IMG/VR virus record: IMGVR_UViG_3300028840_006907
Location: 320,001-384,000 of that record
From: a virus
Strand: one strand, 5' to 3'
DNA: 64,000 nucleotides
Shown piece after piece: positions 616 to 27,941 of the stretch. The notes beneath the pieces were generated by a model that saw nothing but the letters and a program-made list of their open reading frames with translations, searched no databases and was not told where the DNA came from. A program made the translations under genes and the position numbers. The stretch's first letter is position 1. The number at the start of each line of letters is the position of its first letter.

Positions 616-623
616 TTAATTCC

Positions 624-4765: not shown

Positions 4766-4788
4766 TTTATTCCTCTAATTTAAATATG

Positions 4789-5337: not shown

Positions 5338-5344
5338 TTTTTTC

Positions 5345-7081: not shown

Positions 7082-7084
7082 TTA

Positions 7085-15027: not shown

Positions 15028-15807
15028 ATGAAAATATCGAATTTAACTTTAGAACTTGATAAAATAGCGGATGAAATCCAGGTCCAGGATCCTACTATAG
15101 CCCTTGCTATTGATAAAATATCTGATGCTTTGGAGAATCCTAAAAAGAAAATCGATCCTTCAACTTTAACAGATGAACAAATTAAAAAGATGAAAGTTCA
15201 TCTTAGAGTCAGAACTGCTCGATATGTTATTAGTAGTGAAACTTTGCATATGTTAAAGGAAGCAGGTCTTAAGGAAGATTTTGATAAAATATTCAGTAAA
15301 GGTAAAGCCACATGGTTTAATTTATGGAATAAAATTAAAGATAAAACTCTTATGGCTGAAATAAAAGCTTTAAATTCTGTCCATGCTATCAAAGAATTCC
15401 TTAAAAAAAATCCTGCAATGAAATGGACTGTATTAAGTGCTATTGCCTTAGGTCTCATATCTTTGCCTTTGGCAGCGAATGTCGATATCATATCTCCAAG
15501 TAATTTAATTGATCTTGTCACTAGTATCGATATTGATATAGTGATGGATCCATCTGGATTCCCTTCTCTTGAAATCACTATTGATGATTCATGGATACAG
15601 GAAGTAGCTCAAGAAAGTATGATGGATGCAAAATCTAAAGAGCAGTTAAAATCCAATCTTAAAGATAGTCTTATGGAGATTTTAACTGAAAAGTATGAAA
15701 GAAGTCCTTTGAAAAAAGTTATTAAAAAAGAACAGATAATTCCACATCTCCAACGAATTATTAAAGAGCAATTATGGCCAAAAATTTTAAAATATTTAGT
15801 TATATAA
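15028..15807 (+). CDS. hypothetical membrane-associated protein
   Basis: 259 aa; GGAGGA RBS; hydrophobic segment WTVLSAIALGLISLPLAANV. Confidence 0.45.
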   Translation: MKISNLTLELDKIADEIQVQDPTIALAIDKISDALENPKKKIDPSTLTDEQIKKMKVHLRVRTARYVISSETLHMLKEAGLKEDFDKIFSKGKATWFNLWNKIKDKTLMAEIKALNSVHAIKEFLKKNPAMKWTVLSAIALGLISLPLAANVDIISPSNLIDLVTSIDIDIVMDPSGFPSLEITIDDSWIQEVAQESMMDAKSKEQLKSNLKDSLMEILTEKYERSPLKKVIKKEQIIPHLQRIIKEQLWPKILKYLVI

Positions 15808-15822
15808 TAAAGGAGATATAAG

Positions 15823-15966
15823 ATGCCTACTAGAAAAGTTTATGGTGGTAAAAATTATGATTGGAATTATGGTAGAACCAGAGATGATTTAAAAGCTGAA
15901 GCAAAATGGAAAGAATCAAAAGACCGGAAAGAACGTCAAGAACAAGACAAAAGAAATAAGAAATAA
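15823..15966 (+). CDS. small basic hypothetical protein (47 aa), absent from ORF track
   Basis: AAAGGAG RBS then ATG; K/R-rich; stop directly abuts the next gene's ATG at 15967. Confidence 0.3.
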   Translation: MPTRKVYGGKNYDWNYGRTRDDLKAEAKWKESKDRKERQEQDKRNKK

Positions 15967-16536
15967 ATGTTTTATAGAAGAGAATTAATTGATCTAAATT
16001 CTAGTGAAGGAAAGACTCTAATGGAATGTATGTTGCCAGGTTGTCAGGGCAATGAGTTTAAAGAGACTGTTGCCAATAGATTAAGAAAAGTCTCACGGAT
16101 ACTTAAGGCTCAATTCTATGACATCGATCCTGAAATGCTCCTGAGACTATATCAGGATTATCTCGAAGAAATGCCTGATAATTGGAATTATATCCTTCCA
16201 CCTGAACTTAATGAAATTATAAAAAGTGGTCAGGCTAGTAATTATTTTCTACTTGATATTCGGAAACCTGAAGATTTTCAGGAAGTTCGTATACCAGGTA
16301 CAGTAAATATCTATTGGCAAGATGTATTGAAAAAAGAAAATTTAAATAAATTGCCTATTGATAAAGAAATAATAATTATTTGTTATCTTGGTCATACAAG
16401 TTCTCAGATCTTGGTTATTTTGTCCACATTAGGTTACCGTTGTAGATCTCTGAAGTTCGGGATGGGTAAAAGTCCCGATGTAAAAGTACTTATAAAGGGT
16501 TGGTTGGATTATAATTTCCCAGTGATAAAACAATAG
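15967..16536 (+). CDS. rhodanese-like domain protein
   Basis: 189 aa; IIIICYLGHTSSQ matches the rhodanese active-site loop (CxxGxxS) after a hydrophobic strand. Confidence 0.55.
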   Translation: MFYRRELIDLNSSEGKTLMECMLPGCQGNEFKETVANRLRKVSRILKAQFYDIDPEMLLRLYQDYLEEMPDNWNYILPPELNEIIKSGQASNYFLLDIRKPEDFQEVRIPGTVNIYWQDVLKKENLNKLPIDKEIIIICYLGHTSSQILVILSTLGYRCRSLKFGMGKSPDVKVLIKGWLDYNFPVIKQ

Positions 16537-16543
16537 ATTTATT

Positions 16544-17032
16544 ATGAATAAGCAATCGTTTAATAAAGAAAATGTTACAGAACTTCTTAGTCAATTGAAA
16601 AAAGTAGTTAATCGGGATTTGGGTGATGAATATAATCAGGAATTAATAGAATTAAGTAGGAAAATAGACCGAAATTTTAAAAAGAGAAAATTAGTAATGC
16701 GGGTGGCTTCTAATTTTTTAAAAACTATTCTTGCTACAATGGCATATAGTACTCATGGTAAATGGTCACCTTCAAAAGAGATTTATAAAACTGAAAAAGA
16801 ACGTGGTAATAAAGTTGATAAACTTCTTTTACAAGAAAATTATGACGCTATTTGGGTATGCCCTAAACCAGAAGATTGTGTAAGATATAATAGAAGTAGT
16901 GATGAAGAAGATGATCCTGTAACACAGGAAGAAATTGATGAACTCGTCAAAGTCAATTTGAGTGGAGCTACACACGTAAAATCTATGGATGATGGTGATG
17001 GCGGGGAATTATGGATTAGAAAGGCAAAGTAG
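16544..17032 (+). CDS. hypothetical protein
   Basis: 162-aa ORF between rhodanese-like and sulfotransferase-like genes. Confidence 0.4.
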   Translation: MNKQSFNKENVTELLSQLKKVVNRDLGDEYNQELIELSRKIDRNFKKRKLVMRVASNFLKTILATMAYSTHGKWSPSKEIYKTEKERGNKVDKLLLQENYDAIWVCPKPEDCVRYNRSSDEEDDPVTQEEIDELVKVNLSGATHVKSMDDGDGGELWIRKAK

Positions 17033-17610
17033 TGATTTGTTCTGATGAATATCAATTCATATTTTATGCAGTCCCTAAAACCGGTTCTCGATCCATGCAA
17101 AATTTTCTTCAACGTTACGGTCGTCGCTCTGTAACTGGCTGGTCACCTAATCATAATAATTATGAAGAAGTAAAAAGTGATGTAGGTATAGAAAAAAGTA
17201 ATAAATATTTTAAGTTTGCTTTTTTCAGAAATCCATGGGCTATGCTTGTATCCATGTATTTCTATAATATGCATATATGGGGACTAAATGCCAAAAAAGA
17301 TTCTGTTGTAAATTGGCTTAATACATATAAAGGCGGGGATCCTTATATTCCTTATATTTTTGATAATGAAGGAAATGCCATTTTGGATTTTATGGGTAAG
17401 TTAGAAAATTCCAGAGAAGATTTAAAAACTGTCTGTAAAATGTTAAAGATCCCGATCTCAGGAGAATTGTCCCATATAGGAAAACAACATGTAAAAGGAA
17501 GATTGGATTATAGAGCGTATTATGAAAGTCCAGTACTAGTGGAAAAAATAAGAAAGATATTTTCAAAAAGTCTTAGTGTGTTAAATTATGACTTTAATGA
17601 AGGGGTTTAA
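17032..17610 (+). CDS. sulfotransferase-family protein
   Basis: 192 aa; N-terminal AVPKTGSRS (5'-PSB-like) and FRNPWAMLVSMY (3'-PB-like) motifs. Apparent GTG start overlapping the upstream stop. Confidence 0.6.
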   Translation: MICSDEYQFIFYAVPKTGSRSMQNFLQRYGRRSVTGWSPNHNNYEEVKSDVGIEKSNKYFKFAFFRNPWAMLVSMYFYNMHIWGLNAKKDSVVNWLNTYKGGDPYIPYIFDNEGNAILDFMGKLENSREDLKTVCKMLKIPISGELSHIGKQHVKGRLDYRAYYESPVLVEKIRKIFSKSLSVLNYDFNEGV

Positions 17611-17715: not shown

Positions 17716-17765
17716 AATTTAAGTATATTAATTTCCCAGAGAGCATAACTAATGCAAAGAAGTTT

Positions 17766-17808
17766 AGGTTGTGGGACCAAGGTCAGGGTTCTGCAACCTA
17801 TTTTTTTA
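17766..17808 (+). terminator. terminator-like hairpin with T-tract
   Basis: AGGTTG ... CAACCT stem followed by ATTTTTTTAT; second of several hairpins in a 340-bp non-coding gap. Confidence 0.4.
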
Positions 17809-17949: not shown

Positions 17950-18816
17950 ATGGACAAAAAATATGAAGACCGAATGCTTGTCGTTTTTATCTTAGTGGGT
18001 CTAGTTGGTGGGTCACTGTTCTATTTCCTTAAAGATGGTCAGCCTCTCAGCTCAATTTTCATGACTTTCGCTCTATCAAGTATCCTCTATCGATTCCTGG
18101 GTGGAATTGGCCAAGGCACAAAATTCAGTGTCGGAGCATTTCGGTTAGGTGGTAGTGCAGCCTTCATGATCGGCTGTATCTTTTTTATCAACGAGTACAT
18201 TTTCCCAAAACCAGAAATCAACACCATTGTTTTAAGTACTCCCCAGGATCGATGGGTTCCTGTTAAATACCCTACAGGTGAGTATGTGAATGTTAAGGTA
18301 TTAACTCCTTCTGGAGATACTATTATTCATGGTATAAGTAGTGTAGAAATGGATGCTTTAAAAAAAAGGGAATACTGCATCACAAAAGAAGGGGAGAATT
18401 TTTATATCTGTTCTAATGCTGATTCAACGGTAATAGGCCATCTTAAGTTTGAAGATGTTTTTAAAGCTATTGAAAATGATATCCATATCACAGTCCAAGA
18501 TTTTCGGGTTTTTAAATTATACCCTAATCCTATAAATGACCCAAAAGATCAAGAAAAGAAATATAAAACTACTGATTCACTTGATGCTGTAAGTCAGACT
18601 TTTCCCATAGTAATCGAAGTCGATAAAACTAATATGAATATAAAGACAAAGGATGACAGTTTATTAACATCAGATGTACCTCGTAGTGAAAAATTCTATT
18701 TAGTTGATATTGAAAATGAGTATTTTATAGTTACAATATTACATGCTAATTTAGAAACATCAGAAAGTAAATGGTATTCTGAGTTTCTTGTTGGAAAAGT
18801 ATCTATTAATCGATAG
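17950..18816 (+). CDS. hypothetical membrane protein
   Basis: 288 aa; AAAGGAGG RBS; ~3 N-terminal hydrophobic helices. Confidence 0.45.
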   Translation: MDKKYEDRMLVVFILVGLVGGSLFYFLKDGQPLSSIFMTFALSSILYRFLGGIGQGTKFSVGAFRLGGSAAFMIGCIFFINEYIFPKPEINTIVLSTPQDRWVPVKYPTGEYVNVKVLTPSGDTIIHGISSVEMDALKKREYCITKEGENFYICSNADSTVIGHLKFEDVFKAIENDIHITVQDFRVFKLYPNPINDPKDQEKKYKTTDSLDAVSQTFPIVIEVDKTNMNIKTKDDSLLTSDVPRSEKFYLVDIENEYFIVTILHANLETSESKWYSEFLVGKVSINR

Positions 18817-18823
18817 AGGTAAT

Positions 18824-19252
18824 ATGAGCAATATGAAAATTGCAATAGCTTCTTATATGCGTTATACAGTTGTTTTAGCCAACTTGAAAGAGCATTTCAA
18901 AAGAGAACTCGATCTAGCTGGCCTATTTGATAAAGACTCCGATTATAATGGAATGATAGGTAACGCTGTTATGGACCTGTGTAAAGTCTTCTCTGATCAG
19001 GGCCATAGCGGGTTCTCCGCGAACTGGGTTCTGAAATTGTTCGATACTCTTGGTCACTATAAAACGTTGACTCCTATTACAGATAATCCGAAAGAGTGGA
19101 TGAAGGTTACAGATGGCCTCGGTAGAGATGAACCGGTCTGGCAGAGTAATCGAAATCCTTCCCTTTTTTCTAATAATGGTGGAAAGAGTTATTATGATGT
19201 AGACGATAAGAAGCGTAAGAAGATCCGCTCTAAAAAGTTTAAAAAGAAATAA
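18824..19252 (+). CDS. hypothetical protein
   Basis: Track start 18788 is TTG; in-frame ATG at 18824 has an AGAGGT RBS. Confidence 0.4.
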   Translation: MSNMKIAIASYMRYTVVLANLKEHFKRELDLAGLFDKDSDYNGMIGNAVMDLCKVFSDQGHSGFSANWVLKLFDTLGHYKTLTPITDNPKEWMKVTDGLGRDEPVWQSNRNPSLFSNNGGKSYYDVDDKKRKKIRSKKFKKK

Positions 19253-19312
19253 TTTTTCTGAATAAATCAGGTTTTTTTCTTATTCTTTCGATAATTTCTC
19301 TTCTCTTTTTTC

Positions 19313-19327
19313 TCATAATTTATTATA
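19313..19327 (+). promoter_or_regulatory. candidate leader promoter motif TTATAATTATATATA
   Basis: 15-bp motif in the AT-rich leader ~90 bp upstream of the first repeat; identical 15-mer recurs at 56411-56425. Confidence 0.35.
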
Positions 19328-19414
19328 ATTATATATAGTATCTATAGCTCTTTGAAATTGGTAGAAATTTACTGAATCCGTAAGCCCTTGATCTTATGAT
19401 ATTTATGTTTTAGT

Positions 19415-20311
19415 ATATTCCCCGCGTATGCGGGGCTGGGCCGATAAATCTTAAAATGGGTAAGATAAAAACCTGAATATTCCCCGCCCATGCGGGGCTG
19501 ATGCGTAATATAAATAATTTTTGATCAATTATAGGACATATTCCCCGCCCCTGCGGGGATTCCCCGAAAATATTGATGTTTTTTTGTATATATCAAAAAT
19601 ATTCCCCGCCCCTGCGGGGTTGATGCGAATACCGAACAAGTGCAGGGCCTGCAGATTATATATTCCCCGCGTATGCGGGGCTGGCGCGTAGGAGGTAAAA
19701 ATGAAATCGAAACATATTCCCCGCGTATGCGGGGCTGGTTCTAGAATTGAATGAAGCGCTGAATTTTCCCCGCCCATGCGGGGCTGAACCGACCGGGAAA
19801 TCATATCTATCCATAAATCTTGCATATTCCCCGCGTATGCGGGGCTGAACCGATACTAGATTGGGACATGTGTTTACCCAGAACATATTCCCCGCCCATG
19901 CGGGGCTGAACCGATTTCAAAAAACACGACCAGATAAAGATGAATATTCCCCGCGTATGCGGGGCTGTGTCAGGGTGAGAGGCTCGTGACGAATAATTTT
20001 TCATATTCCCCGACTCTTCGGGGTTGCCCCTCAGGAAGCTATTGAATTGCAAAAAACTGTATTCCCCGTCTATGCGGGGCTGTCTCTCCACATGCAAATG
20101 TAAGTAGTAAATACTGAATATTCCCCGGCATTCCGGGGCTGATCCCGTCTGGTAAAAACATAAAATGGTTCATCATAAGTATTCCCCGCCCATGCGAGGT
20201 TGGGCCATCCAGTACTGCTACTGCTAGGACCGTATTCCCCGCCCATGCGGGGCTGATCCTACGACTGGGACAGAAGTATTCATTGGTTTCACCCCGGCCT
20301 TTCCGGGGTCT
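19415..20311 (+). CRISPR. CRISPR-like array, 16 palindromic repeats with type I-E-like repeat sequence; non-canonical (degenerate 3' ends, variable spacing); no cas genes in window
   Basis: Consensus ATATTCCCCGCGTATGCGGGG(CTGAACCG) with repeat starts at 19415, 19477, 19538, 19599, 19660, 19714, 19764, 19824, 19885, 19944, 20003, 20059, 20118, 20179, 20232, 20288. Periods 50-62 bp (mode 61). Unique intervening sequences; AT-rich leader upstream; last repeat degenerate. Confidence 0.55.
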
Positions 20312-20316
20312 AAAAT

Positions 20317-20355
20317 AAGGATCTGAGATTTTTTTCTTAGATCCTTATATTTTTA
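20317..20355 (+). terminator. terminator-like hairpin downstream of the array
   Basis: AAGGATCTGAG - 8-nt loop - CTTAGATCCTT (one G-U wobble) followed by a T-rich tract. Confidence 0.35.
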
Positions 20356-20409
20356 ATAATGTATTTATATTATTCCTTTAAATAATATCAAAATAAAAAA
20401 GGAAAAAGT

Positions 20410-21315
20410 ATGGCAATTGCGTTTATGAGAGGAAGCACCACTAATCAGAATGATTTGACCATAACGGTACGTGATACATCCAATAATTTGATCGACCCGT
20501 ATTCGTTGGAGTATGCTGTCTTCGATTACACTAGTGGCACTGAGGTCCTCATCGGATCCCCTGTTAATACTCCGCTCAAGTTGTCAACAGGAGAATATTG
20601 GGCGGAGGTTGTAATAGCAGCCGATGCCAATATAGGTCTCTGGCGCATCCGTTGGACAATTCAAGAAACAGCAGTCAGTCCTGTTTATCAATCGGTTCAG
20701 GAATTTCAAGTAGTAGGTTCCAGTGTTGTGACGAGTGTAACCGGAGATGCAAATTTTGATGCATTGGTCCATTCTTTACGAGTGATACTCCGAGACAACA
20801 ATCCGGACCGCAACTACAGATTTCGTCCCCCAGCTTCCGAGAAATTTATCCAAGGTCAGACCCAAGTCTTTGGATTCATTTGGGAAGATGAAGAGCTTGT
20901 AGAGTATATATACATGGCTATTGACGACTTCAATTCACGCCCCCCGACTACAGGTATAGATGTGGCCAATCTTTGGGGAACTGAGAGACGGTGGAGAACT
21001 ACAATTATTTTAAGAGCAGCAGCTTTTGCATGTTTCGCTATAACAATGAATTGGATCGCTGACGAATTTTCTTATTCAATTTCTGGAGTATCTCTTGACA
21101 TTGAGAAATCTTCGAAGTATCAATCTATGAAAGAGAATTATATCAATGAATATGACAAGCTTGTCGAGGCCAATAAGAGATCCATAAAAATTATAAAAGG
21201 TCTTAGGCAATATCGGTACGGGGTGGGCATCACGAGCGCCCTGGGACCCATGAACAGACCTGGAGTTCAAAGTAGAAGAAACCTTATAAGTCCAAGTTAT
21301 GGCCCTTATTTCTAA
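20410..21315 (+). CDS. hypothetical protein
   Basis: 301-aa ORF with AAGGAAAAAG RBS. Confidence 0.45.
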   Translation: MAIAFMRGSTTNQNDLTITVRDTSNNLIDPYSLEYAVFDYTSGTEVLIGSPVNTPLKLSTGEYWAEVVIAADANIGLWRIRWTIQETAVSPVYQSVQEFQVVGSSVVTSVTGDANFDALVHSLRVILRDNNPDRNYRFRPPASEKFIQGQTQVFGFIWEDEELVEYIYMAIDDFNSRPPTTGIDVANLWGTERRWRTTIILRAAAFACFAITMNWIADEFSYSISGVSLDIEKSSKYQSMKENYINEYDKLVEANKRSIKIIKGLRQYRYGVGITSALGPMNRPGVQSRRNLISPSYGPYF

Positions 21316-21408
21316 TGAGTTATGGAGATGATAGCTTTTTCTGTAAATCTAAATTATTCTATATGATTTTATAAAGAATATTTGTAGACTTGGACCTAGG
21401 GCAGTACC

Positions 21409-23859
21409 TTATATTTTATTATTTTTTCTAAGGAGAGCTATCTGACGTTTAATCCATCGAGGAGTTTCTTCAAGAGTTTCAGCCATTTGATTTCTTGTCA
21501 TCTTTCCACGATTATCTATTATGAATTGGAGCTTTTCTTCAGTCTTTCTATCTTTGGTACAACCAATAGGGTTTTTTGTAGATAATGTACCTTTTTTTTG
21601 TAAGAATTTTATTTGAGATTTAACCCATCGCTCTGTTTCATTGAGAGCTTTAGATAATTCTTTTTTAGTTTTATTTTTATAATTAGTGATTATATACTGC
21701 GTTTTTTCAGGGGTTCTTCTACATTTTGTTGAGAATTTAGAAATCTCTTTTAAATAGGTAAATTTCTCAGTGGGTTGTTTAATATTTATATCTTCAATAC
21801 ATTTTGAATTATATATTTCTTTTTCTCTTTTAGGATAAGGTTTAGTAACATAATTTTTTAATTTGTTAATTTTTTTCTTATCTCTTTTATTTTCACCTAT
21901 TAATAAGACATATTTATGTTTTCTTTCAGTAATAAATTTTTGAGCTTCAGATAATATATTTTTATTCCAATTATTCCATTGAACTTTAATTCCTTCTGGT
22001 ATGGTACTCATATTTTTAAAACCATTTTCTTTAAACCATTCCTTTTGAGAAATAATCCCTTGATTTTTACACCATTTTTTAAATGCTGATGTACGTTTTA
22101 GAGATTGAGCTGAAAAAGTCCTATTATTTTTAATGGAAGGATGTTTATATAAGTATGAACTTCCAAAGTTATTTCCTAGATAATCAAATCCACAAGCTTG
22201 GTAAATAGTCCCTATTTCAAGAGCTTTAGGATCAGCATAACCTATGAAAGCTCTTTTAGAAGTGTTATTAGCCATCCAATTACAAGCAAACCTTATAAGA
22301 CGGCTACCCAGGTTTTTCGGGGTCCATGAGGCAGTGGCACCTCTTTGAATTAAAGCTTCATATTTGGGAGTATCTTTACCTAGAATTTTGGAATATGCTG
22401 TGGGTTCATTTATAAATAATACTCCTGCGAGAATATTATTGTATCTGGCTGTGAAGCACCATTTTGGTATTACTCCAATTGTTCCTAACCATTCATATTT
22501 TTTTATAAATTGGACCATTTCATTATTAAATTTTTCTTCAGATAATGTAAAAGAAGTAGCTTTTAAAGAAGAGTGATTGAAATCGATATTTTTTTTATCT
22601 TCATCAATCCATTGAAGTTTCTTTTTATATTGGTGGCATATAAAAGTGGTCTTGTTTTTACTGTTAATTTTATTTTTTATTAAATCAATGATAATACCTT
22701 TTCGGATAGCTTCTTTTACATCATCAGACCAAAATCTAATCAAATTGGGTATATTTTTATTTTGGATTTCATCATTCTTAATATTTTCTTTTATTTTTAA
22801 TGCCCTTGGAGACGTATCATTTTCTCTTATTTCTTTACCATGCCAATAATTACCATCATATTGTACCCATAAGTTATAGCGAGGCATATAGAAATCAATT
22901 ACATGTTTAATAATTGGGTGCATAACTTGATGTTCTACAAAAGGATCAAATACAATAAGATAATTAAAAAAGTTATTTTCTTCATCTGAGGATGAGAAGG
23001 AATTATTTAGTTTAACTGTTTTATATGTTTTTTCTTTTATTTCAACATTCTGTTGGGGATTTTCAACGCCATATCTTTCAATATTAGTTTCAGTGATTTT
23101 TTTCTTAATCTCTGGAGATTGGAATACATTGTCAACCCCGTATCTTGATTGTACTGTTACTTTAACTTTTCTTTTTACTTCTTTAGATTGAGAGGGGTAT
23201 TCTACTCCTCGTTTTTCAATATTAGATTGACGGGATTTTTCTTTCATTGAGTTTAGTTGAGTAGAATATTCTACGCCATAACGTTTTTTAATAGTTTCGT
23301 TATTATGTTTAACTATATCTTCATTTATTTTATCTCGATTCCTTCTTAATCCTAGTTTAATAGCTCTTTCTCGGATGGCTTTCCAGGTCCTGTTTTCAAA
23401 GTAGAGCATAATAAATTCCATAGAATTCTTTTCATATACTTCTTTTAAAAGATCATCTTCTTTGGGTGACCAGAAGTCTTCCCTAGCAGGAGCGCTTTTA
23501 CCACCATCAATCATTTCTTGTTTAATTATTTCAGGATTTCTTTGAAGGTTTAATTTTTGAGCATTACTTCGGATGCTTTGCCATGATCGATTCTTGAATT
23601 TAGAAAGGATAAATTCTTTTGAATTATTTTCATATATATTTTTAAGAATATTTATCTCTTCGGTTGTCCAGGAATCTTTTCTTGGTCCTCTTTTTTTACG
23701 GTCTTCATTTATAAGGTCAGGATTACGGTGAAGATTTAGCTTACGTGCTTTTCTACAGATGGTTGTCCAAGATTTATTTAATTTGGAGATAATAAATTCT
23801 TTTGAATTATTTTTATATATTTCTTTTAATAAATTTTCTTCTTCTATTTTCCAACGCAT
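21409..23859 (-). CDS. multidomain hypothetical protein: N-terminal triplicated helical repeats, YGV(E/D)N repeats, possible Vsr/PD-(D/E)xK-like nuclease core
   Basis: Start set at second Met (MRWKIEE) with AAGAGG RBS; track start is 23916. Three ~50-aa repeats (SWTTEEINILKNIYENNSKEFI...); three RYGVxNxxQ repeats; VIDFYMPRYNLWVQYDGNYWHG resembles a Vsr/DUF559-type core. Only minus-strand gene in the plus-strand block. Confidence 0.5.
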   Translation of the reverse strand: MRWKIEEENLLKEIYKNNSKEFIISKLNKSWTTICRKARKLNLHRNPDLINEDRKKRGPRKDSWTTEEINILKNIYENNSKEFILSKFKNRSWQSIRSNAQKLNLQRNPEIIKQEMIDGGKSAPAREDFWSPKEDDLLKEVYEKNSMEFIMLYFENRTWKAIRERAIKLGLRRNRDKINEDIVKHNNETIKKRYGVEYSTQLNSMKEKSRQSNIEKRGVEYPSQSKEVKRKVKVTVQSRYGVDNVFQSPEIKKKITETNIERYGVENPQQNVEIKEKTYKTVKLNNSFSSSDEENNFFNYLIVFDPFVEHQVMHPIIKHVIDFYMPRYNLWVQYDGNYWHGKEIRENDTSPRALKIKENIKNDEIQNKNIPNLIRFWSDDVKEAIRKGIIIDLIKNKINSKNKTTFICHQYKKKLQWIDEDKKNIDFNHSSLKATSFTLSEEKFNNEMVQFIKKYEWLGTIGVIPKWCFTARYNNILAGVLFINEPTAYSKILGKDTPKYEALIQRGATASWTPKNLGSRLIRFACNWMANNTSKRAFIGYADPKALEIGTIYQACGFDYLGNNFGSSYLYKHPSIKNNRTFSAQSLKRTSAFKKWCKNQGIISQKEWFKENGFKNMSTIPEGIKVQWNNWNKNILSEAQKFITERKHKYVLLIGENKRDKKKINKLKNYVTKPYPKREKEIYNSKCIEDINIKQPTEKFTYLKEISKFSTKCRRTPEKTQYIITNYKNKTKKELSKALNETERWVKSQIKFLQKKGTLSTKNPIGCTKDRKTEEKLQFIIDNRGKMTRNQMAETLEETPRWIKRQIALLRKNNKI

Positions 23860-23962
23860 ATGAGTACCTCTTTTTAGTATATTACTTATTATAACAGGTA
23901 TTAGAGTTATTGTCAATATTTCATTTAATAAATATGGAATTCATTAATTTATAGGGAAAAAG

Positions 23963-24316
23963 ATGGAAATTGAAATTTATGGAAAAGAATTTGTTTCTTG
24001 TAATATTTTAAGGGCTGAAGTAGGTACAAATTGCCCACAGGGGGGAGATACAGGACATGGTGGTCGAACTATTTTAAGATTGATTGATGAAGCAGCTACT
24101 GATATAAGTATAAAAGTAGATGGTCAGCCTTTAGGTAGTATAAAAACTTTGGAAATATTATTAGGTGGCGATACTGAGTGCGACACTTTTATGAATGCTC
24201 TTAATTTTGCCTTGAATGTATTAAAAGATCATAATCCAAATTATGAAATGGATCCACATATAAGAGGTTCTGGGAAGGGATTGATACAAAAAGATTATAA
24301 AATAGAAACATTATGA
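23963..24316 (+). CDS. hypothetical protein
   Basis: 117-aa ORF; stop overlaps next start (ATGA). Confidence 0.4.
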   Translation: MEIEIYGKEFVSCNILRAEVGTNCPQGGDTGHGGRTILRLIDEAATDISIKVDGQPLGSIKTLEILLGGDTECDTFMNALNFALNVLKDHNPNYEMDPHIRGSGKGLIQKDYKIETL

Positions 24317-24861
24317 TTACAAAGATAGAATTATTAGAAAAATACAGAACTTTAAAACCGTTTGTTATGGAGCCTAATCTAGGAGTCAATCTTATTGTTG
24401 GTGAGAATGGTTCGGGTAAATCCTCATTGTTAAATATTATAAAGGAAAATGCTCCTGAGGTAAGATTAGAAATTGAAGGTACTATAAATTATTACCATTT
24501 TGATACGGAAAAGGACAATCCTCGAACTCAAGGCACTCTTCCATTTAATGCTCCTGGTGATGTTTATGCCTATCATCTGACGTCACATTTCCAGAGTCAT
24601 GGTGAAGTACTATTTCCTATTTTAAATCTTATGAGAACTTTTGAGAACAGGATTTTATTCTATGATGAACCGGAGAGTGGGGTCTCGATTAATAATCAGT
24701 TAAAGGCATGTACTGCGATAAGAAAAGCGGTAAGGAATGGTTGTCAACTTTTTATTGCGACTCATTCTTATATATTTATAAAAAAATTTAAAAAAGTCTT
24801 TGATTTAAAGACATATCAATTTGTAAAATCAGAGGATTGGTTATCTCAATTTAGGATATAA
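24313..24861 (+). CDS. small P-loop NTPase (ABC/AAA_21-like ATPase fragment)
   Basis: 182 aa; Walker A GENGSGKSS and Walker B-like ILFYDEPESG; short for a full ABC ATPase. Confidence 0.5.
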   Translation: MITKIELLEKYRTLKPFVMEPNLGVNLIVGENGSGKSSLLNIIKENAPEVRLEIEGTINYYHFDTEKDNPRTQGTLPFNAPGDVYAYHLTSHFQSHGEVLFPILNLMRTFENRILFYDEPESGVSINNQLKACTAIRKAVRNGCQLFIATHSYIFIKKFKKVFDLKTYQFVKSEDWLSQFRI

Positions 24862-25073
24862 CATGATACCAGAATGGGTTTATAGATTAATGGTTGAAGA
24901 TCGAGAACGATGTATGATAAATCATTTAGAAAAAAGGAATTATATTGACGAGGAAGAGATAAAAGAGAATACTCTTTCTGATATCTCTGAAAAGGATTAA
25001 AATATGACTCTCATGGATTTACATAAATAAATTTTATTTCACATATTTTTTAACTTTACATAAGGAGACATAC

Positions 25074-25913
25074 ATGCACAAAATAATAGTCTTATTATTA
25101 GTTTTGTTAGTGAATGTTTTTTCTGTAACGCCTGAATATTTGTGGGTAGGTTCCTACACTATTGAGCATTACAATAATGGTGTTTATTTGGCTTATAGTC
25201 ATAAGCAAGCTTCTGCTTTTACTTCTCTAATGAGTTGGCTTATTAATTGGAAAAATCTTGATATTGATTATAAGTGGAATCATAACTATAAGGATGCTGC
25301 TGTTAATGAGACAGTATTCGAAGGACAGGATTTTAATATTAATGAATTTCTCATTTTTGTTAGTCATGGTTATCGGGGAGGAATGGTCATTAATAAATAT
25401 AATACTTCGACTACTTATGCAATGGATATCTCTAATCAATATCCTAATACCAGATCATGGGATTTTGGTAATTCTTATACCAAATGGATTATCATGGGTT
25501 CTTGTCATACAATCCTGGATGAGCATGTGACTGTGTGGGGGACCACTTTTTATTTTTACGATCAGATTTTTGATGGTGTGCATAGTATTATGGGCTATAA
25601 ATCTGATGGTAGAAACGTTTATGATGGTGGTCCGATAGGAAGATTCCCATTAGAGTGGGTTCATAATCGACGTTCTATTTGGAATGCATGGCGTGTGTCG
25701 GTCCGGGAAGAAGTATATGAAGGTTGCAACCAAGATGTGACACCTTCCATGGTAGGTGTTTGGGGAACTGTGAATGGGCAAGATTGGGATGCAGATACTG
25801 AATTGTTTTATGCTGTGTATGATGCCTTAACACCTCATAATGAAACTTTGGGGGCTTGGATAGGTTATGGTATGATGTATCGTCATGTTGAATATGGCGA
25901 TCCGGAATATTAA
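25074..25913 (+). CDS. secreted hypothetical protein
   Basis: 279 aa; N-terminal signal-peptide-like MHKIIVLLLVLLVNVFSVTPE; AAGGAGA RBS. Confidence 0.45.
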   Translation: MHKIIVLLLVLLVNVFSVTPEYLWVGSYTIEHYNNGVYLAYSHKQASAFTSLMSWLINWKNLDIDYKWNHNYKDAAVNETVFEGQDFNINEFLIFVSHGYRGGMVINKYNTSTTYAMDISNQYPNTRSWDFGNSYTKWIIMGSCHTILDEHVTVWGTTFYFYDQIFDGVHSIMGYKSDGRNVYDGGPIGRFPLEWVHNRRSIWNAWRVSVREEVYEGCNQDVTPSMVGVWGTVNGQDWDADTELFYAVYDALTPHNETLGAWIGYGMMYRHVEYGDPEY

Positions 25914-25930
25914 AAAAGGGAGATAAAGAG

Positions 25931-26848
25931 ATGAAAAAAGTATTTATTATAATAGTATTGTTTTGTGCTTATGGATTTTCAGAAATATCTGTGTCAGATA
26001 TTGTTAAATCATTTGTGGATAATCCAAAGACTTTCAGATCTAGATTGTTGAAATATGAAGTTATTCCAGACCATGTTGATTTACCAATAGAATTTGTCGA
26101 TGATGAAGATGAAAGTTTATGGAAAACTAAGAAAAAGGTTAATTATATAATAGATTATTCAAAGATGTCGAAATGTGCTGATAAATTTAGAGATCTTTTT
26201 GCATATGAAGGATTGACTGAATATCAGTATATGGATCAGTCAAACCTTTTGGTATTTAATCATCCTAATGGTGGCCGTGAAGTATCCGCACAGATTGTCA
26301 GGGATTTGATTAATACTAGAACAGAGGCAGAATTAAAAAATATAGGATTGACTTTAGGTGAAAAGCTCTTTGCCATTTTTAAGAATAAAATAGAATTTCA
26401 ATGTACGGAAATAGAGTATACAAGGGGTCATACGAATTTAAACCAAATAAGTAAATACTCTATTCGATATAGGCGTATTTTTAATGATGGTATTGTCTTA
26501 CAGAATATTTCCTATATAATGTTAACTCTGGAAGGACTTGGTGATTTGATTGAAGTCGAGATTAAATGGCCTAAATTTAAAAAATGTGAAAATATAAAGA
26601 ATGGCATTTTAATTAAGGACGCTTTAATATTAGCTAAACAAGAGTATAATGAAATCGCTTCTCGAAAAGTTGATGAATTCTTAAATATTGAAGCTATCGA
26701 TAGACTTTCTATAACTGGATCTTGTTTTGGATGGACTCATGAGATCATTGATGGTGTTAATTTATTAAAACCTAGTTATGGGTTTGTGGGAATAGCTGAA
26801 ACAAAGAATGGTAAAAAAGAACATCATTATATAAATATCGATAAATGA
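25931..26848 (+). CDS. secreted hypothetical protein
   Basis: 305 aa; signal-peptide-like MKKVFIIIVLFCAYGFSEIS; GGGAGA RBS. Confidence 0.45.
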   Translation: MKKVFIIIVLFCAYGFSEISVSDIVKSFVDNPKTFRSRLLKYEVIPDHVDLPIEFVDDEDESLWKTKKKVNYIIDYSKMSKCADKFRDLFAYEGLTEYQYMDQSNLLVFNHPNGGREVSAQIVRDLINTRTEAELKNIGLTLGEKLFAIFKNKIEFQCTEIEYTRGHTNLNQISKYSIRYRRIFNDGIVLQNISYIMLTLEGLGDLIEVEIKWPKFKKCENIKNGILIKDALILAKQEYNEIASRKVDEFLNIEAIDRLSITGSCFGWTHEIIDGVNLLKPSYGFVGIAETKNGKKEHHYINIDK

Positions 26849-26888
26849 TCTATTTTTTTGATACAGTTTTGTAGAAATGGGCTAAATC

Positions 26889-27614
26889 TTGCAACAACAA
26901 ATTTTCGGGTGTTTAAAAGATACTCTTTCGATTCTGATTGTTTTAAAAGATCCTACAGTTGTTAAAAAGATTATAAGGTTTATTCAGCCTACTTATATTT
27001 ATAATATCACAATAGTTAATTCGGTTAAAGGAGCACAGGAAGTTCTTGACAAAGAAAGAGTTCATCTCTGTCTTCTGGGTTCTGAATTTAAAGAATTTGC
27101 TATTATAAATAAATATTTATATACTTCGTTTATAATATTTGTAATTGATGATATAAATTATCATGAGATTTTTAATTATGTGAAATTAGGAGTTAAGACT
27201 CTAATTGACAAAGGTAGTATTAACTTCTCTTTGATAAAAATAATTAATCATTTTTCTCTTAGGAATGTTATTAATCCATTCTATAGAAGAGGTTTCGAAG
27301 ATATTTTATCTGTTTCCACTGAAAAATTAATTGAAAGAAATCCTAGTGGAGTAACTGACTGGGCTTCTGATTGTGGTATATCAGAAAGACAATTAAGATG
27401 GATATGGAATATAAGATTTAAAGTAAAAACTAGAATCGTATTATTTATTTATAAAATTTATAAAACTGCTTTTGATGTTAAAAACCCTTTAGACAAAAAG
27501 ACCTTCGAACAATTAACTTTTTTCTTTATTTCCCATAAAAATGAAATAATAGATTATATCAATTACTTACAATTAAAAGATGTTCCTGTCTACAAAATGT
27601 TCTTTCAATCGTAA
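26889..27614 (+). CDS. possible pseudo-receiver/HTH regulatory protein
   Basis: 241-aa ORF with no in-frame ATG near the 5' end (TTG start); receiver-like FIIFVIDD...KLGVKTLIDKG and HTH-like GISERQLRWIW; low-complexity. May be degenerate. Confidence 0.3.
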   Translation: MQQQIFGCLKDTLSILIVLKDPTVVKKIIRFIQPTYIYNITIVNSVKGAQEVLDKERVHLCLLGSEFKEFAIINKYLYTSFIIFVIDDINYHEIFNYVKLGVKTLIDKGSINFSLIKIINHFSLRNVINPFYRRGFEDILSVSTEKLIERNPSGVTDWASDCGISERQLRWIWNIRFKVKTRIVLFIYKIYKTAFDVKNPLDKKTFEQLTFFFISHKNEIIDYINYLQLKDVPVYKMFFQS

Positions 27615-27695
27615 TAAACTTCTAATACTCTATTCAATGTAATAATCAATTGATATTTAGCTCTGTTTTAAAGACTATCTGATAAGGAGCAAAAA

Positions 27696-27941
27696 ATGGC
27701 TTTTGAAGTTGAATATTTTGAATTGTCACCGAGCGATGCAACAAATGAGTATGTCTCATTAGGGGGTGTTCCAGTGGTTGCTGATAATGTTGCAATAGAT
27801 CTTGTGGGAGGTACAGCCCAAGCATTAACGAATGATTTTGCCGTTGATGGAACAAGAATTGTATGGGATAGTACATCCTATAATTTAAATGGACTGCTTG
27901 CTACTGGTGACAAAATGAGAGCTATCTACGATAGATCCTAA
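27696..27941 (+). CDS. small hypothetical protein upstream of fibre genes
   Basis: 81 aa; AAGGAG RBS; immediately precedes the fibre gene pair. Confidence 0.4.
   Translation: MAFEVEYFELSPSDATNEYVSLGGVPVVADNVAIDLVGGTAQALTNDFAVDGTRIVWDSTSYNLNGLLATGDKMRAIYDRS

What the first reader, a model, noticed from the sequence alone, without database searches (positions are those of the whole stretch)
19260..27620. Accessory island around the array: reverse-strand nuclease-like gene, mini ATPase pair, secreted proteins, degenerate regulator
Between two long plus-strand structural blocks lies a block with different character. It holds the array, a 301-aa unknown, the only minus-strand gene of the region (a multidomain protein with triplicated helical repeats, YGVxN repeats and a Vsr/PD-(D/E)xK-like core), a two-gene overlapping cassette ending in a truncated-looking P-loop ATPase, two signal-peptide proteins, and a receiver/HTH-like ORF lacking an ATG start. 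This is the kind of neighbourhood where defence, anti-defence or homing-endonuclease cargo accumulates.
Basis: inference. Interest (0 to 1): 0.6.

Follow-up and report, generated by a model that had tools for sequence, protein, structure and literature searches.

The report
Counter-defence cargo slots in huge phage
In a huge phage (contig about 390 kb), two fast-changing cargo slots flank one conserved virion gene and carry counter-defence genes: a Thoeris inhibitor, a CRISPR-repeat-like hairpin array, and a large enzyme that joins a Mom-type DNA-modifying domain to a Vsr-like nuclease, a kind of fusion already predicted for jumbo phages.

Summary
The block is real, and most of it is variable among related phages. 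It is not one island. It is two hypervariable slots (about 15.0-20.4 kb and 21.4-27.6 kb) on either side of a core gene. The 301-aa protein is present in 80 of 80 related huge-phage loci and is probably a head-tail connector.

These units have degenerate tails and irregular spacing.

The "truncated" ATPase is a full-length member of a mini ABC-ATPase family. The receiver/HTH call could not be verified. g279 is an ORFan; g305 and g241 match no family library and none of the related loci.

Novelty is moderate.

The parts
15028..17610 (+). Outer part of the left variable slot: g259, a rhodanese-like protein (15967-16536), g162 and a sulfotransferase-like protein (17032-17610).
   Evidence: These genes have no relative, or one only in L006, within 10 kb of g301 in the 80 related loci. 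Rhodanese Pfam E 8e-10. Sulfotransferase PHROG E 1e-7.
17765..17800 (+). Terminator-like hairpin with a 14-bp stem and a T-run.
   Evidence: Consensus scan.
17950..18816 (+). g288: a predicted membrane protein with hydrophobic N-terminal segments; function unknown.
   Evidence: ORF. No family hit. Absent from the 80 loci, but 63% identical in the closest relative L217, again upstream of Tad3.
18824..19252 (+). Tad3-family protein (142 aa counted from the ATG), a candidate inhibitor of the Thoeris TIR protein ThsB.
   Evidence: Pfam PF25185 E 5e-33, 113.8 bits against a cut-off of 27, profile positions 2-115 of 119. JGI called the same gene. Homologues are 50% identical in L006 and 68% in L217. 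Tad3 function is taken from PMC13402655 and PMC13243611.
19260..19414 (+). AT-rich, leader-like stretch upstream of the first repeat.
   Evidence: Sequence. It contains only weak promoter-like matches.
19415..20260 (+). Array of 15 hairpin units with a 29-nt repeat, ATATTCCCCGC-N4-GCGGGGCTGAACCG, of the type I-E CRISPR repeat class. The canonical GAACCG tail is present in 3 of 15 units. Spacers are 32-33 nt in 8 units and 20-30 nt in 7. A 16th, degenerate hairpin lies at about 20289-20308.
   Evidence: The core plus tail exactly matches arrays with a 61-nt period in more than 120 stretches of bacterial genomes; the best host repeats are 26-27 of 29 identical. Stem covariation across 40 units from two phages is supported. 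There is no Rfam hit and no protospacer was found.
20315..20348 (+). Terminator-like hairpin (14-bp stem and T-run) that closes the array.
20410..21315 (+). g301: a conserved core gene, probably a head-tail connector. It is not cargo; it is the anchor between the two variable slots.
   Evidence: Present in 80 of 80 related IMG/VR loci at 40-74% identity, and 86% identical in L217. Ten of 42 family members weakly hit phrog_17327, 'head-tail connector protein'.
21409..23859 (-). g835, really 816 aa: a Mom-type DNA-modification enzyme fused to a Vsr-fold nuclease and to arrays of DNA-binding modules.
   Evidence: The sub-domains are listed as separate parts below.
23350..23859 (-). g835 residues 1-170: three Myb/SANT-like three-helix modules.
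   Evidence: Three 3-helix bundles in the AF2 model. Pfam Myb_DNA-binding E 0.003. Weak profile match to c-Myb repeat R3. The copy number varies from 1 to 4 across the family.
23005..23304 (-). g835 residues about 186-285: DUF7487 'YGV' helical repeats.
   Evidence: Pfam PF24308 E 5.6e-17. PHROGs labelled 'homing endonuclease' at E 1e-14 to 5e-15. The copy number varies from 4 to more than 10 in the family.
22654..22947 (-). g835 residues about 305-402: Vsr-fold (PD-(D/E)xK superfamily) nuclease domain.
21856..22554 (-). g835 residues about 436-668: Mom-like GNAT domain.
21412..21717 (-). g835 residues about 715-816: two C-terminal HTH modules.
   Evidence: Pfam HTH_11 and CggR_N at E about 1e-3. 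Helices in the model. The same modules are 42-55% identical at the N-terminus of the LAGLIDADG-methylase fusions of L011 and L025.
23888..23916 (-). Perfect sigma-70 consensus promoter (TTGACA, 17 nt, TG-TATAAT), followed by an AAGAGG ribosome-binding site before the ATG at 23859.
   Evidence: 12 of 12 hexamer matches plus an extended -10. Sequence read.
23963..24316 (+). g117: a small protein of unknown function with an invariant GGDxGHGGRT loop.
   Evidence: 61 homologous clusters, none with a Pfam domain. AF2 pLDDT 87, with no PDB neighbour. Elsewhere it lies in phage replication modules or bacterial islands without an adjacent ATPase.
24313..24861 (+). g182: a complete mini ABC-type ATPase with Walker A GENGSGKS, an SHGE signature, Walker B ILFYDEP and an H-loop ATHS.
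   Evidence: Pfam AAA_15, AAA_21 and AAA_23 above their cut-offs. Family of 296 representatives, 175-205 aa. 68% identical copy beside the g835 homologue in L217.
24863..25000 (+). 45-aa ORF called by JGI; unverified.
   Evidence: Gene call in L001.
25074..25913 (+). g279: an ORFan with a signal-peptide-like N-terminus.
   Evidence: Only the protein itself was found among 5.8 billion clusters. No family or PDB sequence hit.
25931..26848 (+). g305: signal-peptide-like N-terminus; function unknown.
   Evidence: No family hit. Absent from related loci.
26889..27614 (+). g241: TTG start; function unknown. The 'receiver/HTH' label is unverified.
   Evidence: No hit in Pfam, PHROGs, NCBIfam, PADLOC or PDB sequences. 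Absent from related loci.
27696..27941 (+). g81: a conserved small protein that precedes the fibre genes and marks the right boundary of the variable slot.
   Evidence: It lies directly after g301 in L005 and L007-L009, and is present in L006 (57%) and L218 (68%).

Best explanation
The region is a pair of hypervariable cargo slots on either side of a conserved virion gene (g301, connector-like) in a huge phage. Both slots are loaded mainly with counter-defence functions.

Left slot. A Tad3-family protein would block the host Thoeris TIR sensor. This is inferred from family membership. Next to it, a terminator-bounded array of 15 hairpins of the type I-E CRISPR repeat class is transcribed. Selection visibly preserves the hairpin, but not the crRNA handle or the spacer length. 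I therefore think the RNA more likely engages host type I-E Cas proteins (Cas6e or Cascade) as a decoy, or as a few usable guides, than works as a regular adaptive array. This step is an inference.

Right slot. It opens with an independently transcribed gene that has a perfect host-type promoter. Its 816-aa product combines sequence-reading modules (three Myb-like, DUF7487 repeats, two HTH), a Vsr-fold nuclease, and a Mom-type GNAT domain. By analogy with Mu Mom, that domain would transfer an aminoacyl group from charged tRNA to N6 of adenine in double-stranded DNA. The phage DNA would thereby be protected from restriction. The attached nuclease would cut or nick unmodified DNA of the host or of competing phages. 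This is the modification-restriction logic proposed for jumbo-phage Mom-REase fusions by Iyer et al. 2021.

What is shown: the domain identities, the conservation of the catalytic residues, the promoter, the family size, and the presence/absence polymorphism. What is inferred: the chemistry, the targets and the biological role.

The remaining genes (a mini ABC ATPase with an exchangeable partner, two secreted-looking proteins, g241) are lineage-specific cargo with no assignable function.
For: Variability:
- Of 25 window proteins tested against 80 related loci, g301 is in 80 of 80 and g81 is adjacent in several.
- g288, g117, g182, g279, g305 and g241 are in 0 of 80.
- Gene maps show the g835 homologue present in L003 and L004 but absent in L047 at the same junction.
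- The closest relative, L217, keeps g288, Tad3, an array, g301, g835 and the ATPase. L218 (g301 77%) keeps only g301, g835, g81 and the fibre gene.

Tad3: Pfam E 5e-33.

g835:
- Pfam and PHROG Mom hits.
- hhalign to Mu Mom, probability 89.5%.
- Invariant R506, S519, D543 and Y553 match Mom R111, S124, D149 and Y159.
- Invariant D322, D335, H340 and D363 in the nuclease core.
- More than 100 clusters share the architecture, on contigs up to 589 kb.
- Perfect promoter plus ribosome-binding site.
- Prior prediction of Mom-REase fusions in jumbo phages (PMC7824862). Mom mechanism (PMC13219725).
- Analogous couplings sit in the same slot of relatives: an HTH-LAGLIDADG-N6/N4-methylase fusion in L011 and L025, and a LAGLIDADG gene next to a stand-alone Mom gene in L027.

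Array:
- The repeat class matches genuine type I-E arrays.
- 99.2% of stem cells pair, with compensatory changes; 0 of 500 shuffles reach the observed covariation score.
- Tails are degenerate and spacing is irregular.
- L217 has a 51-54-nt period and shares no spacer.
- No Cas domain was detected in any window protein that was scanned.
Against: - No activity has been measured for any gene here.
- Mom's essential R151 is not conserved. It is K545 here, in a column that varies across the family, so the chemistry or substrate may differ from Mu Mom.
- The nuclease segment gives no Pfam Vsr or DUF559 hit on this protein.
- The presence/absence pattern and the PHROG 'homing endonuclease' labels fit a selfish homing element as well as a restriction role.
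- No protospacer, no cas gene and no transcription data exist for the array. The Tad3-array adjacency is limited to two closely related phages.
- Three genes have no functional evidence at all, so 'counter-defence' is not shown for the whole right slot.
- Only 64 kb of the 389-kb contig was examined.
Confidence: 0.62

Rival explanations
1. g835 is primarily a selfish free-standing homing endonuclease. It has a Vsr-type (EDxHD-like) nuclease and repeat DNA-binding modules, it has settled beside its target gene g301, and it spreads by cutting g301 loci that lack it. The Mom domain is then either a passenger or immunises the carrier's own site.
For: - The gene is present in L003 and L004 and absent in L047 at exactly the g301 | 100-aa gene junction.
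- It is on the opposite strand and has its own promoter.
- The DUF7487 and nuclease part hits PHROGs annotated 'homing endonuclease' or 'HNH endonuclease'.
- In about 10 other loci a DUF7487 ORF sits immediately after g301.
- In L006, g301 itself is interrupted by an element with an intein-splicing motif and a DUF559/MTES_1575 nuclease.
- Matches to the DUF7487 and nuclease part occur in phages I know to be rich in homing endonucleases, such as Dickeya, Lak and E. coli jumbo phages.
- Vsr-like homing endonucleases are known (I-Bth0305I; from my own knowledge).
Against: - More than 100 clusters keep the Mom fusion full length, with invariant Mom catalytic residues. A passenger would not be maintained like this.
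- g835 identity falls together with g301 identity (86/75, 77/63, 74/45, about 55/45%), which suggests largely vertical descent.
- Mom also occurs alone or with a different nuclease (LAGLIDADG) in relatives. That points to a functional pairing of modification and nuclease rather than to one particular homing element.
- The two readings are not mutually exclusive.
Confidence: 0.25
2. The array is a working phage-borne CRISPR array. Its transcripts are processed and used by the host's type I-E Cas proteins to target competing phages or host genes, as proposed for orphan arrays of huge phages.
For: - The repeat is of the type I-E class, and three units are fully canonical.
- Eight of 15 spacers are 32-33 nt.
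- It has an AT-rich leader, degenerate distal repeats and a terminator, a layout typical of CRISPR arrays.
- Orphan compact arrays with host-like repeats are documented in huge phages (PMC7162821).
Against: - Twelve of 15 units lack the conserved handle sequence, and seven spacers are 20-30 nt.
- The homologous array in L217 has a 51-54-nt period, one sub-array with repeated 'spacers', and shares no spacer with the window, although the flanking proteins are 68-86% identical.
- No protospacer was found in the window, in 80 related phage loci or in GenBank phages.
- No Cas domain was detected in any window protein that was scanned.
Confidence: 0.25
3. The block is ordinary, conserved structural-module content whose proteins are merely too divergent to annotate.
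For: - g301 and g81 are conserved and probably structural.
- The flanking genes include very large fibre-like proteins with Laminin_G_3 domains.
Against: - Six of the block's genes have no relative next to g301 in any of the 80 loci.
- The slots hold different genes in L006, L218, L011/L025 and L047.
- The identified domains (Tad3, Mom, Vsr, ABC ATPase) are not structural.
Confidence: 0.03

Closest known systems
Mom-REase fusion proteins of jumbo phages (computational prediction; Iyer, Anantharaman, Krishnan, Burroughs and Aravind 2021, Viruses 13:63, PMC7824862)
   Same: A Mom-family GNAT domain is fused to a restriction-endonuclease-fold nuclease in a very large phage. The proposed logic is that the Mom domain protects the phage's own DNA while the nuclease attacks unmodified DNA.
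   Different: - Here the nuclease is specifically Vsr-fold.
- The protein also carries three kinds of DNA-binding repeat modules, whose copy number varies across the family.
- No phage in the GenBank collection has the full-length architecture: 0 records cover 80% or more of the query.
- The activity remains untested in both cases.
Bacteriophage Mu Mom (PDB 8bv8; Gly-tRNA-dependent N6-adenine carbamoylmethylation; PMC13219725)
   Different: - Sequence identity is only about 15-18%.
- The essential R151 is not conserved.
- Mu Mom is a stand-alone 231-aa protein under Com/Dam control, whereas this one is one domain of an 816-aa fusion with its own sigma-70 promoter.
Vsr endonuclease, and Vsr-like (EDxHD) homing endonucleases such as I-Bth0305I
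   Different: - There is no Pfam Vsr or DUF559 hit on this protein.
- It is fused to a DNA-modifying domain.
- It lies outside any intron or intein.
- Cleavage has not been tested.
- My comparison with I-Bth0305I is from memory, not from a tool.
Tad3 (Thoeris anti-defence 3, Pfam PF25185)
   Same: Strong full-length profile match (E 5e-33).
   Different: Inhibition of ThsB has not been tested for this homologue. The host, and whether it has a Thoeris system, are unknown.
Orphan compact CRISPR arrays of huge phages (Al-Shayeb et al. 2020) and RNA anti-CRISPRs, or Racrs (Camara-Wilpert et al. 2023)
   Same: The phage carries repeats that mimic a host CRISPR type, with no adjacent cas genes. As with Racrs, the repeats sit beside an anti-defence gene.
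   Different: - There are 15 units (45 or more in L217) rather than a solitary repeat.
- Unlike regular arrays, the handle is degenerate, the period is irregular or short, and one sub-array in L217 has repeated spacers.
ABC-type ATPase heads of defence systems (AriA of PARIS, GajA of Gabija, PtuA of Septu, HEC-02A, MAD3)
   Same: g182 matches their Walker A and signature/Walker B segments (E 1e-14 to 1e-9).
   Different: Only the two ends of those profiles match. g182 is 182 aa, has no insertion, Toprim or partner domains, and belongs to its own family of mini ATPases.

Membership tests
Mom family (PF25680) | Profile HMM match above the curated cut-off | tested here: met
   41.8 bits against a cut-off of 27.1, E 1.2e-10. 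PHROG 1384 E 4.7e-18.
Mom family (PF25680) | GNAT fold closest to Mu Mom rather than to generic acetyltransferases | tested here: met
Mom family (PF25680) | Catalytic residues R111, S124 and D149, plus Y159 | tested here: met
   hhalign with numbering. S519=S124, D543=D149 and Y553=Y159. R506 lies one column from R111, with the same 13-residue spacing to the Ser. All four are invariant in 32 sequences.
Mom family (PF25680) | Essential R151 | tested here: not met
   The aligned position is K545 here, and the column varies across the family (K, R, M, S, A, E and others).
Mom family (PF25680) | Transfer of glycine from Gly-tRNA to N6-adenine of dsDNA | not testable with these tools
   Needs biochemistry or nucleoside mass spectrometry.
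Vsr-like PD-(D/E)xK nuclease | Vsr fold | tested here: met
Vsr-like PD-(D/E)xK nuclease | Catalytic Asp/His/Asp (Vsr D51, H64, D97) | tested here: inconclusive
   D322, H340 and D363 are invariant and fall in register.
Vsr-like PD-(D/E)xK nuclease | Pfam Vsr, DUF559 or MTES_1575 profile match | tested here: not met
   No such hit on g835 at E<=0.1. A partial homologue, P0109, carries PF04480, and two homologues are named 'very-short-patch-repair endonuclease' by JGI.
Free-standing homing endonuclease | Sporadic presence or absence at one site among related genomes | tested here: met
   L003 and L004 have the gene. L047 lacks it at the same junction, with the same flanking gene series.
Free-standing homing endonuclease | Cleaves the cognate locus that lacks the gene; biased inheritance | not testable with these tools
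   Requires cleavage assays or co-infection experiments.
Tad3 (PF25185) | Profile HMM match above the curated cut-off over the full domain | tested here: met
   113.8 bits against a cut-off of 27, profile positions 2-115 of 119.
Tad3 (PF25185) | Binds ThsB and inhibits type I Thoeris | not testable with these tools
   The function is known only from the literature on other members.
Type I-E CRISPR array | 29-nt repeat of the type I-E sequence and hairpin class | tested here: met
   The core plus tail pattern matches arrays with a 61-nt period in more than 120 stretches of bacterial genomes. The best host repeats are 26-27 of 29 identical.
Type I-E CRISPR array | Repeats conserved over their whole length, with a regular 32-33-nt spacer | tested here: not met
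   The tail is canonical in 3 of 15 units, and 7 of 15 spacers are 20-30 nt. L217 has a period of 51-54 nt.
Type I-E CRISPR array | Adjacent cas genes | tested here: not met
   No Cas domain was detected in the window proteins scanned. The rest of the 389-kb contig was not examined.
Type I-E CRISPR array | Spacers that match foreign DNA | tested here: inconclusive
   None in the window, the 80 related loci or GenBank phages. The source metagenome was not searched.
RNA anti-CRISPR (Racr) | Solitary repeat mimic downstream of a promoter, often beside anti-defence genes | tested here: inconclusive
   It is a repeat mimic beside Tad3, but it has 15 units, not one. Only weak promoter-like matches lie upstream.
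ABC-type ATPase (AAA_15, AAA_21, AAA_23) | Walker A, signature, Walker B and H-loop, with profile matches above the cut-offs | tested here: met
   AAA_15 40.8 bits (cut-off 32.1), AAA_21 31 (27), AAA_23 30.8 (27). The motifs are visible in the alignments.
PARIS, Gabija or Septu ATPases | Full-length match and the partner gene (AriB, GajB or PtuB) | tested here: not met
   Only terminal segments of those profiles match. No partner domains are present in the neighbouring genes.

The most novel reading that the evidence does not exclude
The locus is a compound counter-defence centre with two uncharacterised mechanisms.

(1) The hairpin array may be a multi-copy RNA decoy. Only the Cas6e-type stem-loop is under selection, so it could titrate host type I-E processing or Cascade assembly. 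That would be a tandem, rapidly turning-over form of RNA anti-CRISPR, encoded beside a protein anti-Thoeris gene.

(2) The 816-aa protein may be a single-chain, tRNA-dependent 'momylation-restriction' enzyme. Its sequence specificity would be set by exchangeable Myb, DUF7487 and HTH modules. It would thus be a non-methyl analogue of single-chain (type IIG-like) restriction-modification enzymes, and it may double as a homing element for the connector-gene locus.
Probability: 0.25. Interest if true: 0.75.

Novelty: new member of a known kind. Interest (0 to 1): 0.48.

Why it matters
Mom was only recently shown to use charged tRNA to hypermodify DNA. Here it occurs in a family of more than 100 uncultured huge-phage proteins, with its catalytic residues intact. 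In that family it is welded to a Vsr-fold nuclease and to modular DNA readers. This gives a concrete, clonable candidate for testing the predicted 'momylation plus restriction' strategy, and possibly a source of sequence-specific adenine-hypermodifying enzymes.

The comparison also shows how huge phages organise accessory genes. Two slots next to one conserved virion gene repeatedly collect nuclease-plus-modification fusions, inteins and anti-defence genes.

The hairpin array keeps the CRISPR stem-loop while losing array regularity. It is a testable candidate for a repeat-based decoy.

Tried and rejected
- Nucleotide search of the block against GenBank phages found nothing. An Rfam scan at E<=1 found nothing. 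There are no tRNAs in the window.
- PHROGs and Pfam on the flanking 'structural' genes were almost blank: only Laminin_G_3, a sulfotransferase and a rhodanese. The 'structural block' premise therefore rests on gene size and conservation.
- A profile search of the g301 family against PDB sequences gave only chance hits.
- I asked whether g117 and g182 form a conserved two-gene system, and rejected the idea. g117 homologues elsewhere lack an adjacent ATPase. Mini-ATPase homologues have different upstream partners. In L217 the partner is unrelated to g117.
- The g117 model is confident but has no PDB neighbour.
- A homology search found only g279 itself. g279 and g241 gave no PDB sequence hit even at E 10. 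From the sequence I suspected a caspase-like His/Cys dyad in g279, but nothing supports it.
- I considered a link between g182 and the GNAT-plus-ABC-ATPase modification systems mentioned by Iyer et al. I set it aside, because the ATPase accompanies g835 only in L217 and not in L003, L004, L006, L010, L012 or L218.
- Spacer searches found only chance matches of 14 nt or less.
- The exact repeat pattern gave 5 single hits in IMG/VR, about the number I estimate from chance.
- Arrays are not found beside other Tad3 homologues.
- The roughly 1.2-kb g301 matches in L027, L028, L031 and L074 are a duplication of the N-terminal domain, not an intron or intein.

Full report
SOURCE AND CONTEXT

The window is part of a 388,651-bp JGI metagenome contig (3300017963, Ga0180437_10000019). 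Identical proteins also occur on a contig of 469,617 bp. It is a huge phage of low G+C content (about 0.29-0.45), with no close relative among GenBank phages. From about 8 kb to 63 kb every substantial gene is on the plus strand except one.

The flanking blocks are poorly annotatable. Only Laminin_G_3 domains in two large fibre-like proteins, a sulfotransferase-like protein and a rhodanese-like protein were recognised. The minus-strand block at 1-7759 encodes glycosyl- and methyl-transferases and no Cas proteins.

Largely yes. The array, the 301-aa ORF, the single minus-strand gene with triplicated helical modules, the YGV repeats and the Vsr-like core are all present. So are the 4-nt-overlapping gene pair ending in a P-loop ATPase, two proteins with signal-peptide-like N-termini, and a 241-aa TTG-initiated ORF. 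Four details needed correction; they are covered in the sections below.

ONE ISLAND OR NOT?

I fetched 80 viral loci that encode relatives of the 301-aa protein (40-74% identity, many on contigs of 100-450 kb). I then ran 25 window proteins against them.

- g301 is present in 80 of 80 loci.
- Ten of 42 g301 family members weakly hit a PHROG named 'head-tail connector protein'.
- g81, the small gene before the fibre genes, lies directly after g301 in L005 and L007-L009.
- g288, g117, g182, g279, g305 and g241 have no relative in any of the 80 loci.
- Upstream, g259, g162 and the sulfotransferase also have none.

So g301 is a core virion gene, not cargo. The 'island' is really two hypervariable slots on either side of it: about 15.0-20.4 kb and 21.4-27.6 kb.

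Three closer relatives, found through the g835 family, refine this.

- L217 (g301 86% identical) keeps g288 (63%), Tad3 (68%), an array, g301, g835 (75%) and the mini ATPase (68%).
- L218 (g301 77%) keeps only g301, g835 (63%), g81 and the fibre N-terminus. Seven small ORFs fill the slot between g835 and g81, and there is no Tad3 or array.
- L006 (g301 74%) has Tad3 but no array. Two unrelated ORFs fill that slot instead.

THE LEFT SLOT

The gene at 18824-19252 is a strong Tad3-family member (Pfam E 5e-33). Tad3 proteins bind the ThsB TIR protein and inhibit Thoeris (PMC13402655 and PMC13243611).

The array consists of 15 units of a 29-nt repeat, ATATTCCCCGC-N4-GCGGGGCTGAACCG. The core plus tail exactly matches arrays with a 61-nt period in more than 120 stretches of diverse bacterial genomes. 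The best host repeats are 26-27 of 29 identical. The repeat therefore belongs to the type I-E class.

The array is irregular, however.

- The last 6-7 nt, which form the crRNA 5' handle in type I-E (from my own knowledge), are canonical in only 3 of 15 units.
- Seven spacers are 20-30 nt instead of 32-33 nt.
- The homologous slot of L217 holds 45 or more units with stem CCCCAC/GTGGGG instead of CCCCGC/GCGGGG and a modal period of 51-54 nt.
- One L217 sub-array has near-identical 'spacers', so it is a plain tandem repeat.
- No spacer is shared with the window.

Across 40 units from both phages the 6-bp stem pairs in 99.2% of cells. Pair 11-18 is A-U in 24 units and G-C in 15, and two window units carry further compensatory changes. 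No shuffle out of 500 reaches the observed covariation score, and the slid controls are far lower. Most of the A-U versus G-C signal comes from one change inherited by many copies, so I count about three independent compensatory events.

Selection therefore acts on the hairpin, not on the handle or the spacer length. I found no protospacers and no Cas domain in any window protein scanned. A 14-bp terminator closes the array.

Orphan compact arrays with host-like repeats are known in huge phages (PMC7162821). Solitary repeat mimics act as RNA anti-CRISPRs, including against type I-E (PMC10651486). I consider a decoy or competitor role somewhat more likely than a regular targeting array, but this is an inference. 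The Tad3-array adjacency is confined to this phage and L217.

THE MINUS-STRAND GENE

The ORF's TTG 'start' at 23916 is the -35 hexamer of a perfect TTGACA-17 nt-TG-TATAAT promoter. An AAGAGG ribosome-binding site and the ATG at 23859 follow. The product is 816 aa, as in the public protein collection.

Pfam and PHROGs find DUF7487 (the YGV repeats, E 5.6e-17), Mom (E 1.2e-10; PHROG 'Mom-like DNA modification protein', E 4.7e-18) and weak Myb and HTH matches.

A family alignment of 32 homologues shows variable copy numbers of the N-terminal Myb-like modules (1-4), the YGV repeats (4 to more than 10) and the C-terminal HTH modules (0 to 2 or more). Two domains stay constant and are rich in invariant residues.

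The AlphaFold model, built with that alignment, is confident (mean pLDDT 83.8).

- Foldseek agrees for Mom (E 6e-8).

A profile comparison with the real Mu Mom sequence (probability 89.5%, E 2e-6) aligns the invariant S519, D543 and Y553 with Mom S124, D149 and Y159. R506 falls within one column of R111. These residues are essential or important for momylation (PMC13219725). The essential R151 is not conserved.

In the nuclease domain, D322, D335, H340 and D363 are invariant and fall in the Vsr D51/H64/D97 register. That sequence alignment is weak.

More than 100 protein clusters at 40-75% identity share the DUF7487+Mom architecture, on contigs up to 589 kb. No phage in the GenBank collection has it full length.

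WHAT IS ALREADY KNOWN

Iyer et al. [quoted passage not shown] They proposed that momylation protects phage DNA while the nuclease attacks host or superinfecting phage DNA. g835 fits that known, though untested, kind. It adds the specific Vsr fold and the modular DNA-binding arrays.

THE SLOT AS A HOTSPOT

- L003 and L004 carry the g835 homologue. L047, with the same flanking gene series, lacks it at the same junction.
- In L011 and L025 the slot holds a plus-strand fusion of HTH modules, a LAGLIDADG endonuclease and an N6/N4 DNA methylase. It shares HTH modules with g835.
- In L027 and L031 a stand-alone Mom gene follows an HTH-LAGLIDADG gene (E 3e-32) and precedes a DUF7487 protein.
- About ten loci have a 425-560-aa DUF7487 ORF directly after g301.
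- In L006, g301 is interrupted by about 1.5 kb encoding an intein-splicing motif and a DUF559/MTES_1575 nuclease.

This recurrent pairing of a nuclease with a DNA-modifying enzyme supports the modification-restriction reading. The sporadic distribution, and the targeting of g301 itself, support a homing component. I rank the former first, because the Mom fusion is maintained with intact catalytic residues over a large family, and because g835 identity declines together with g301 identity. The two readings are compatible.

THE REST OF THE RIGHT SLOT

g182 has all the ABC-type motifs. It aligns end to end with a family of stand-alone 175-205-aa ATPases, 296 representatives at E<=1e-10. It is therefore compact, not truncated. 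Matches to defence ATPases (HEC-02A, AriA, GajA, PtuA) cover only the ends of those profiles.

Its upstream, translationally coupled partner differs from place to place: g117 here, a Tpt1/KptA-like gene or unknowns elsewhere, and an unrelated 104-aa protein in L217.

g117 belongs to a 61-cluster family with an invariant GGDxGHGGRT loop. Other members lie in phage replication modules or bacterial islands. Its confident model has no PDB neighbour.

g279 is an ORFan. g305 and g241 match no family library and none of the related loci. The receiver/HTH idea for g241 could not be supported by any library.

VERDICT

The finding is a good example of accessory-gene hotspots in a huge phage, and it contains a member of a previously predicted class of Mom-nuclease fusions. 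The most interesting open points are the activity and specificity of the 816-aa enzyme and the role of the hairpin array.

Noticed in passing
L006:10001-12380: The g301 homologue of this relative is interrupted after about residue 221 by roughly 1.5 kb. The insert encodes an intein C-terminal splicing motif (Pfam Intein_splicing E 4e-6, below the cut-off) and a DUF559/MTES_1575 Vsr-type nuclease. The N- and C-terminal g301 parts are in different reading frames, so there may be a frameshift, an assembly error or a decaying intein.
   Followed up: partly
L011:10968-13253 and L025:10864-13194: In the slot directly after g301, these relatives carry a 761/776-aa plus-strand fusion of HTH modules, a LAGLIDADG_2 endonuclease and an N6_N4 DNA methylase. 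Its HTH modules are 42-55% identical to the C-terminal HTH modules of g835. I did not resolve whether the LAGLIDADG part is an intein within the methylase.
   Followed up: partly
L027:4354-8387 (also L031): A minus-strand operon runs HTH+LAGLIDADG endonuclease (300 aa, E 3e-32), stand-alone Mom (274 aa, 55% identical to the g835 Mom domain), a 163-aa unknown, and a 611-aa DUF7487 protein. It looks like a 'split' counterpart of g835.
   Followed up: partly
L027, L028, L031 and L074, about 10001-11233: The g301 homologue is 410 aa in these loci because its N-terminal domain (query residues about 2-105) is duplicated in tandem.
   Followed up: partly
L217:5494-5896: A sub-array of at least 7 units with a 53-54-nt period has a different, longer stem (about GCCCCCGGCC...GGCCGGGGG) and near-identical linkers. 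It is a tandem repeat rather than a CRISPR-like array, and it adjoins the main hairpin array.
   Followed up: partly
window:1-7759 (minus strand), 15967-16536 and 17032-17610: A cluster of glycosyltransferases (GT2 twice, GT10-like) and methyltransferases (FkbM and others), plus a rhodanese-like and a sulfotransferase-like gene further on. This suggests phage-encoded glycan synthesis or modification.
   Followed up: partly
L094:3483-4555 and L095:13-878: A homologue of the mini ABC ATPase is translationally coupled to a Tpt1/KptA-type RNA 2'-phosphotransferase gene and followed by a class-I aminoacyl-tRNA-synthetase-like gene. This hints that some members of the family work in RNA or tRNA transactions.
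   Followed up: no
L083-L086, about 4577-7609: The g117 family member P0174 is seen on at least 319 contigs. It always sits between a DNA polymerase A/DUF7768 pair and a D5_N primase-helicase in phage contigs of about 50-90 kb. It is thus a widespread, unnamed small protein of phage replication modules.
   Followed up: partly
window:27979-31665: The 1228-aa fibre-like protein contains long, near-perfect internal peptide repeats (...TATNGNIVASNGNISATNGTVTGGTGLIATTGGV...), which also create a spurious 183-aa antisense ORF at 29121-29672. Its N-terminal 240 residues are 53% identical in L218, while the rest diverges.
   Followed up: no
L092:6810-8483: On a 648-kb contig that carries a mini-ATPase homologue, a 557-aa protein with a faint Cas12f1-like TNB hit (TnpB/Cas12-like) lies 2 kb downstream.
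   Followed up: no
L006:6778-8337 and 15453-15983: A CCA-adding enzyme/poly(A) polymerase+HD protein lies just upstream of Tad3. A small SAM methyltransferase (Methyltransf_24) lies immediately upstream of, and co-oriented with, the g835 homologue.
   Followed up: no
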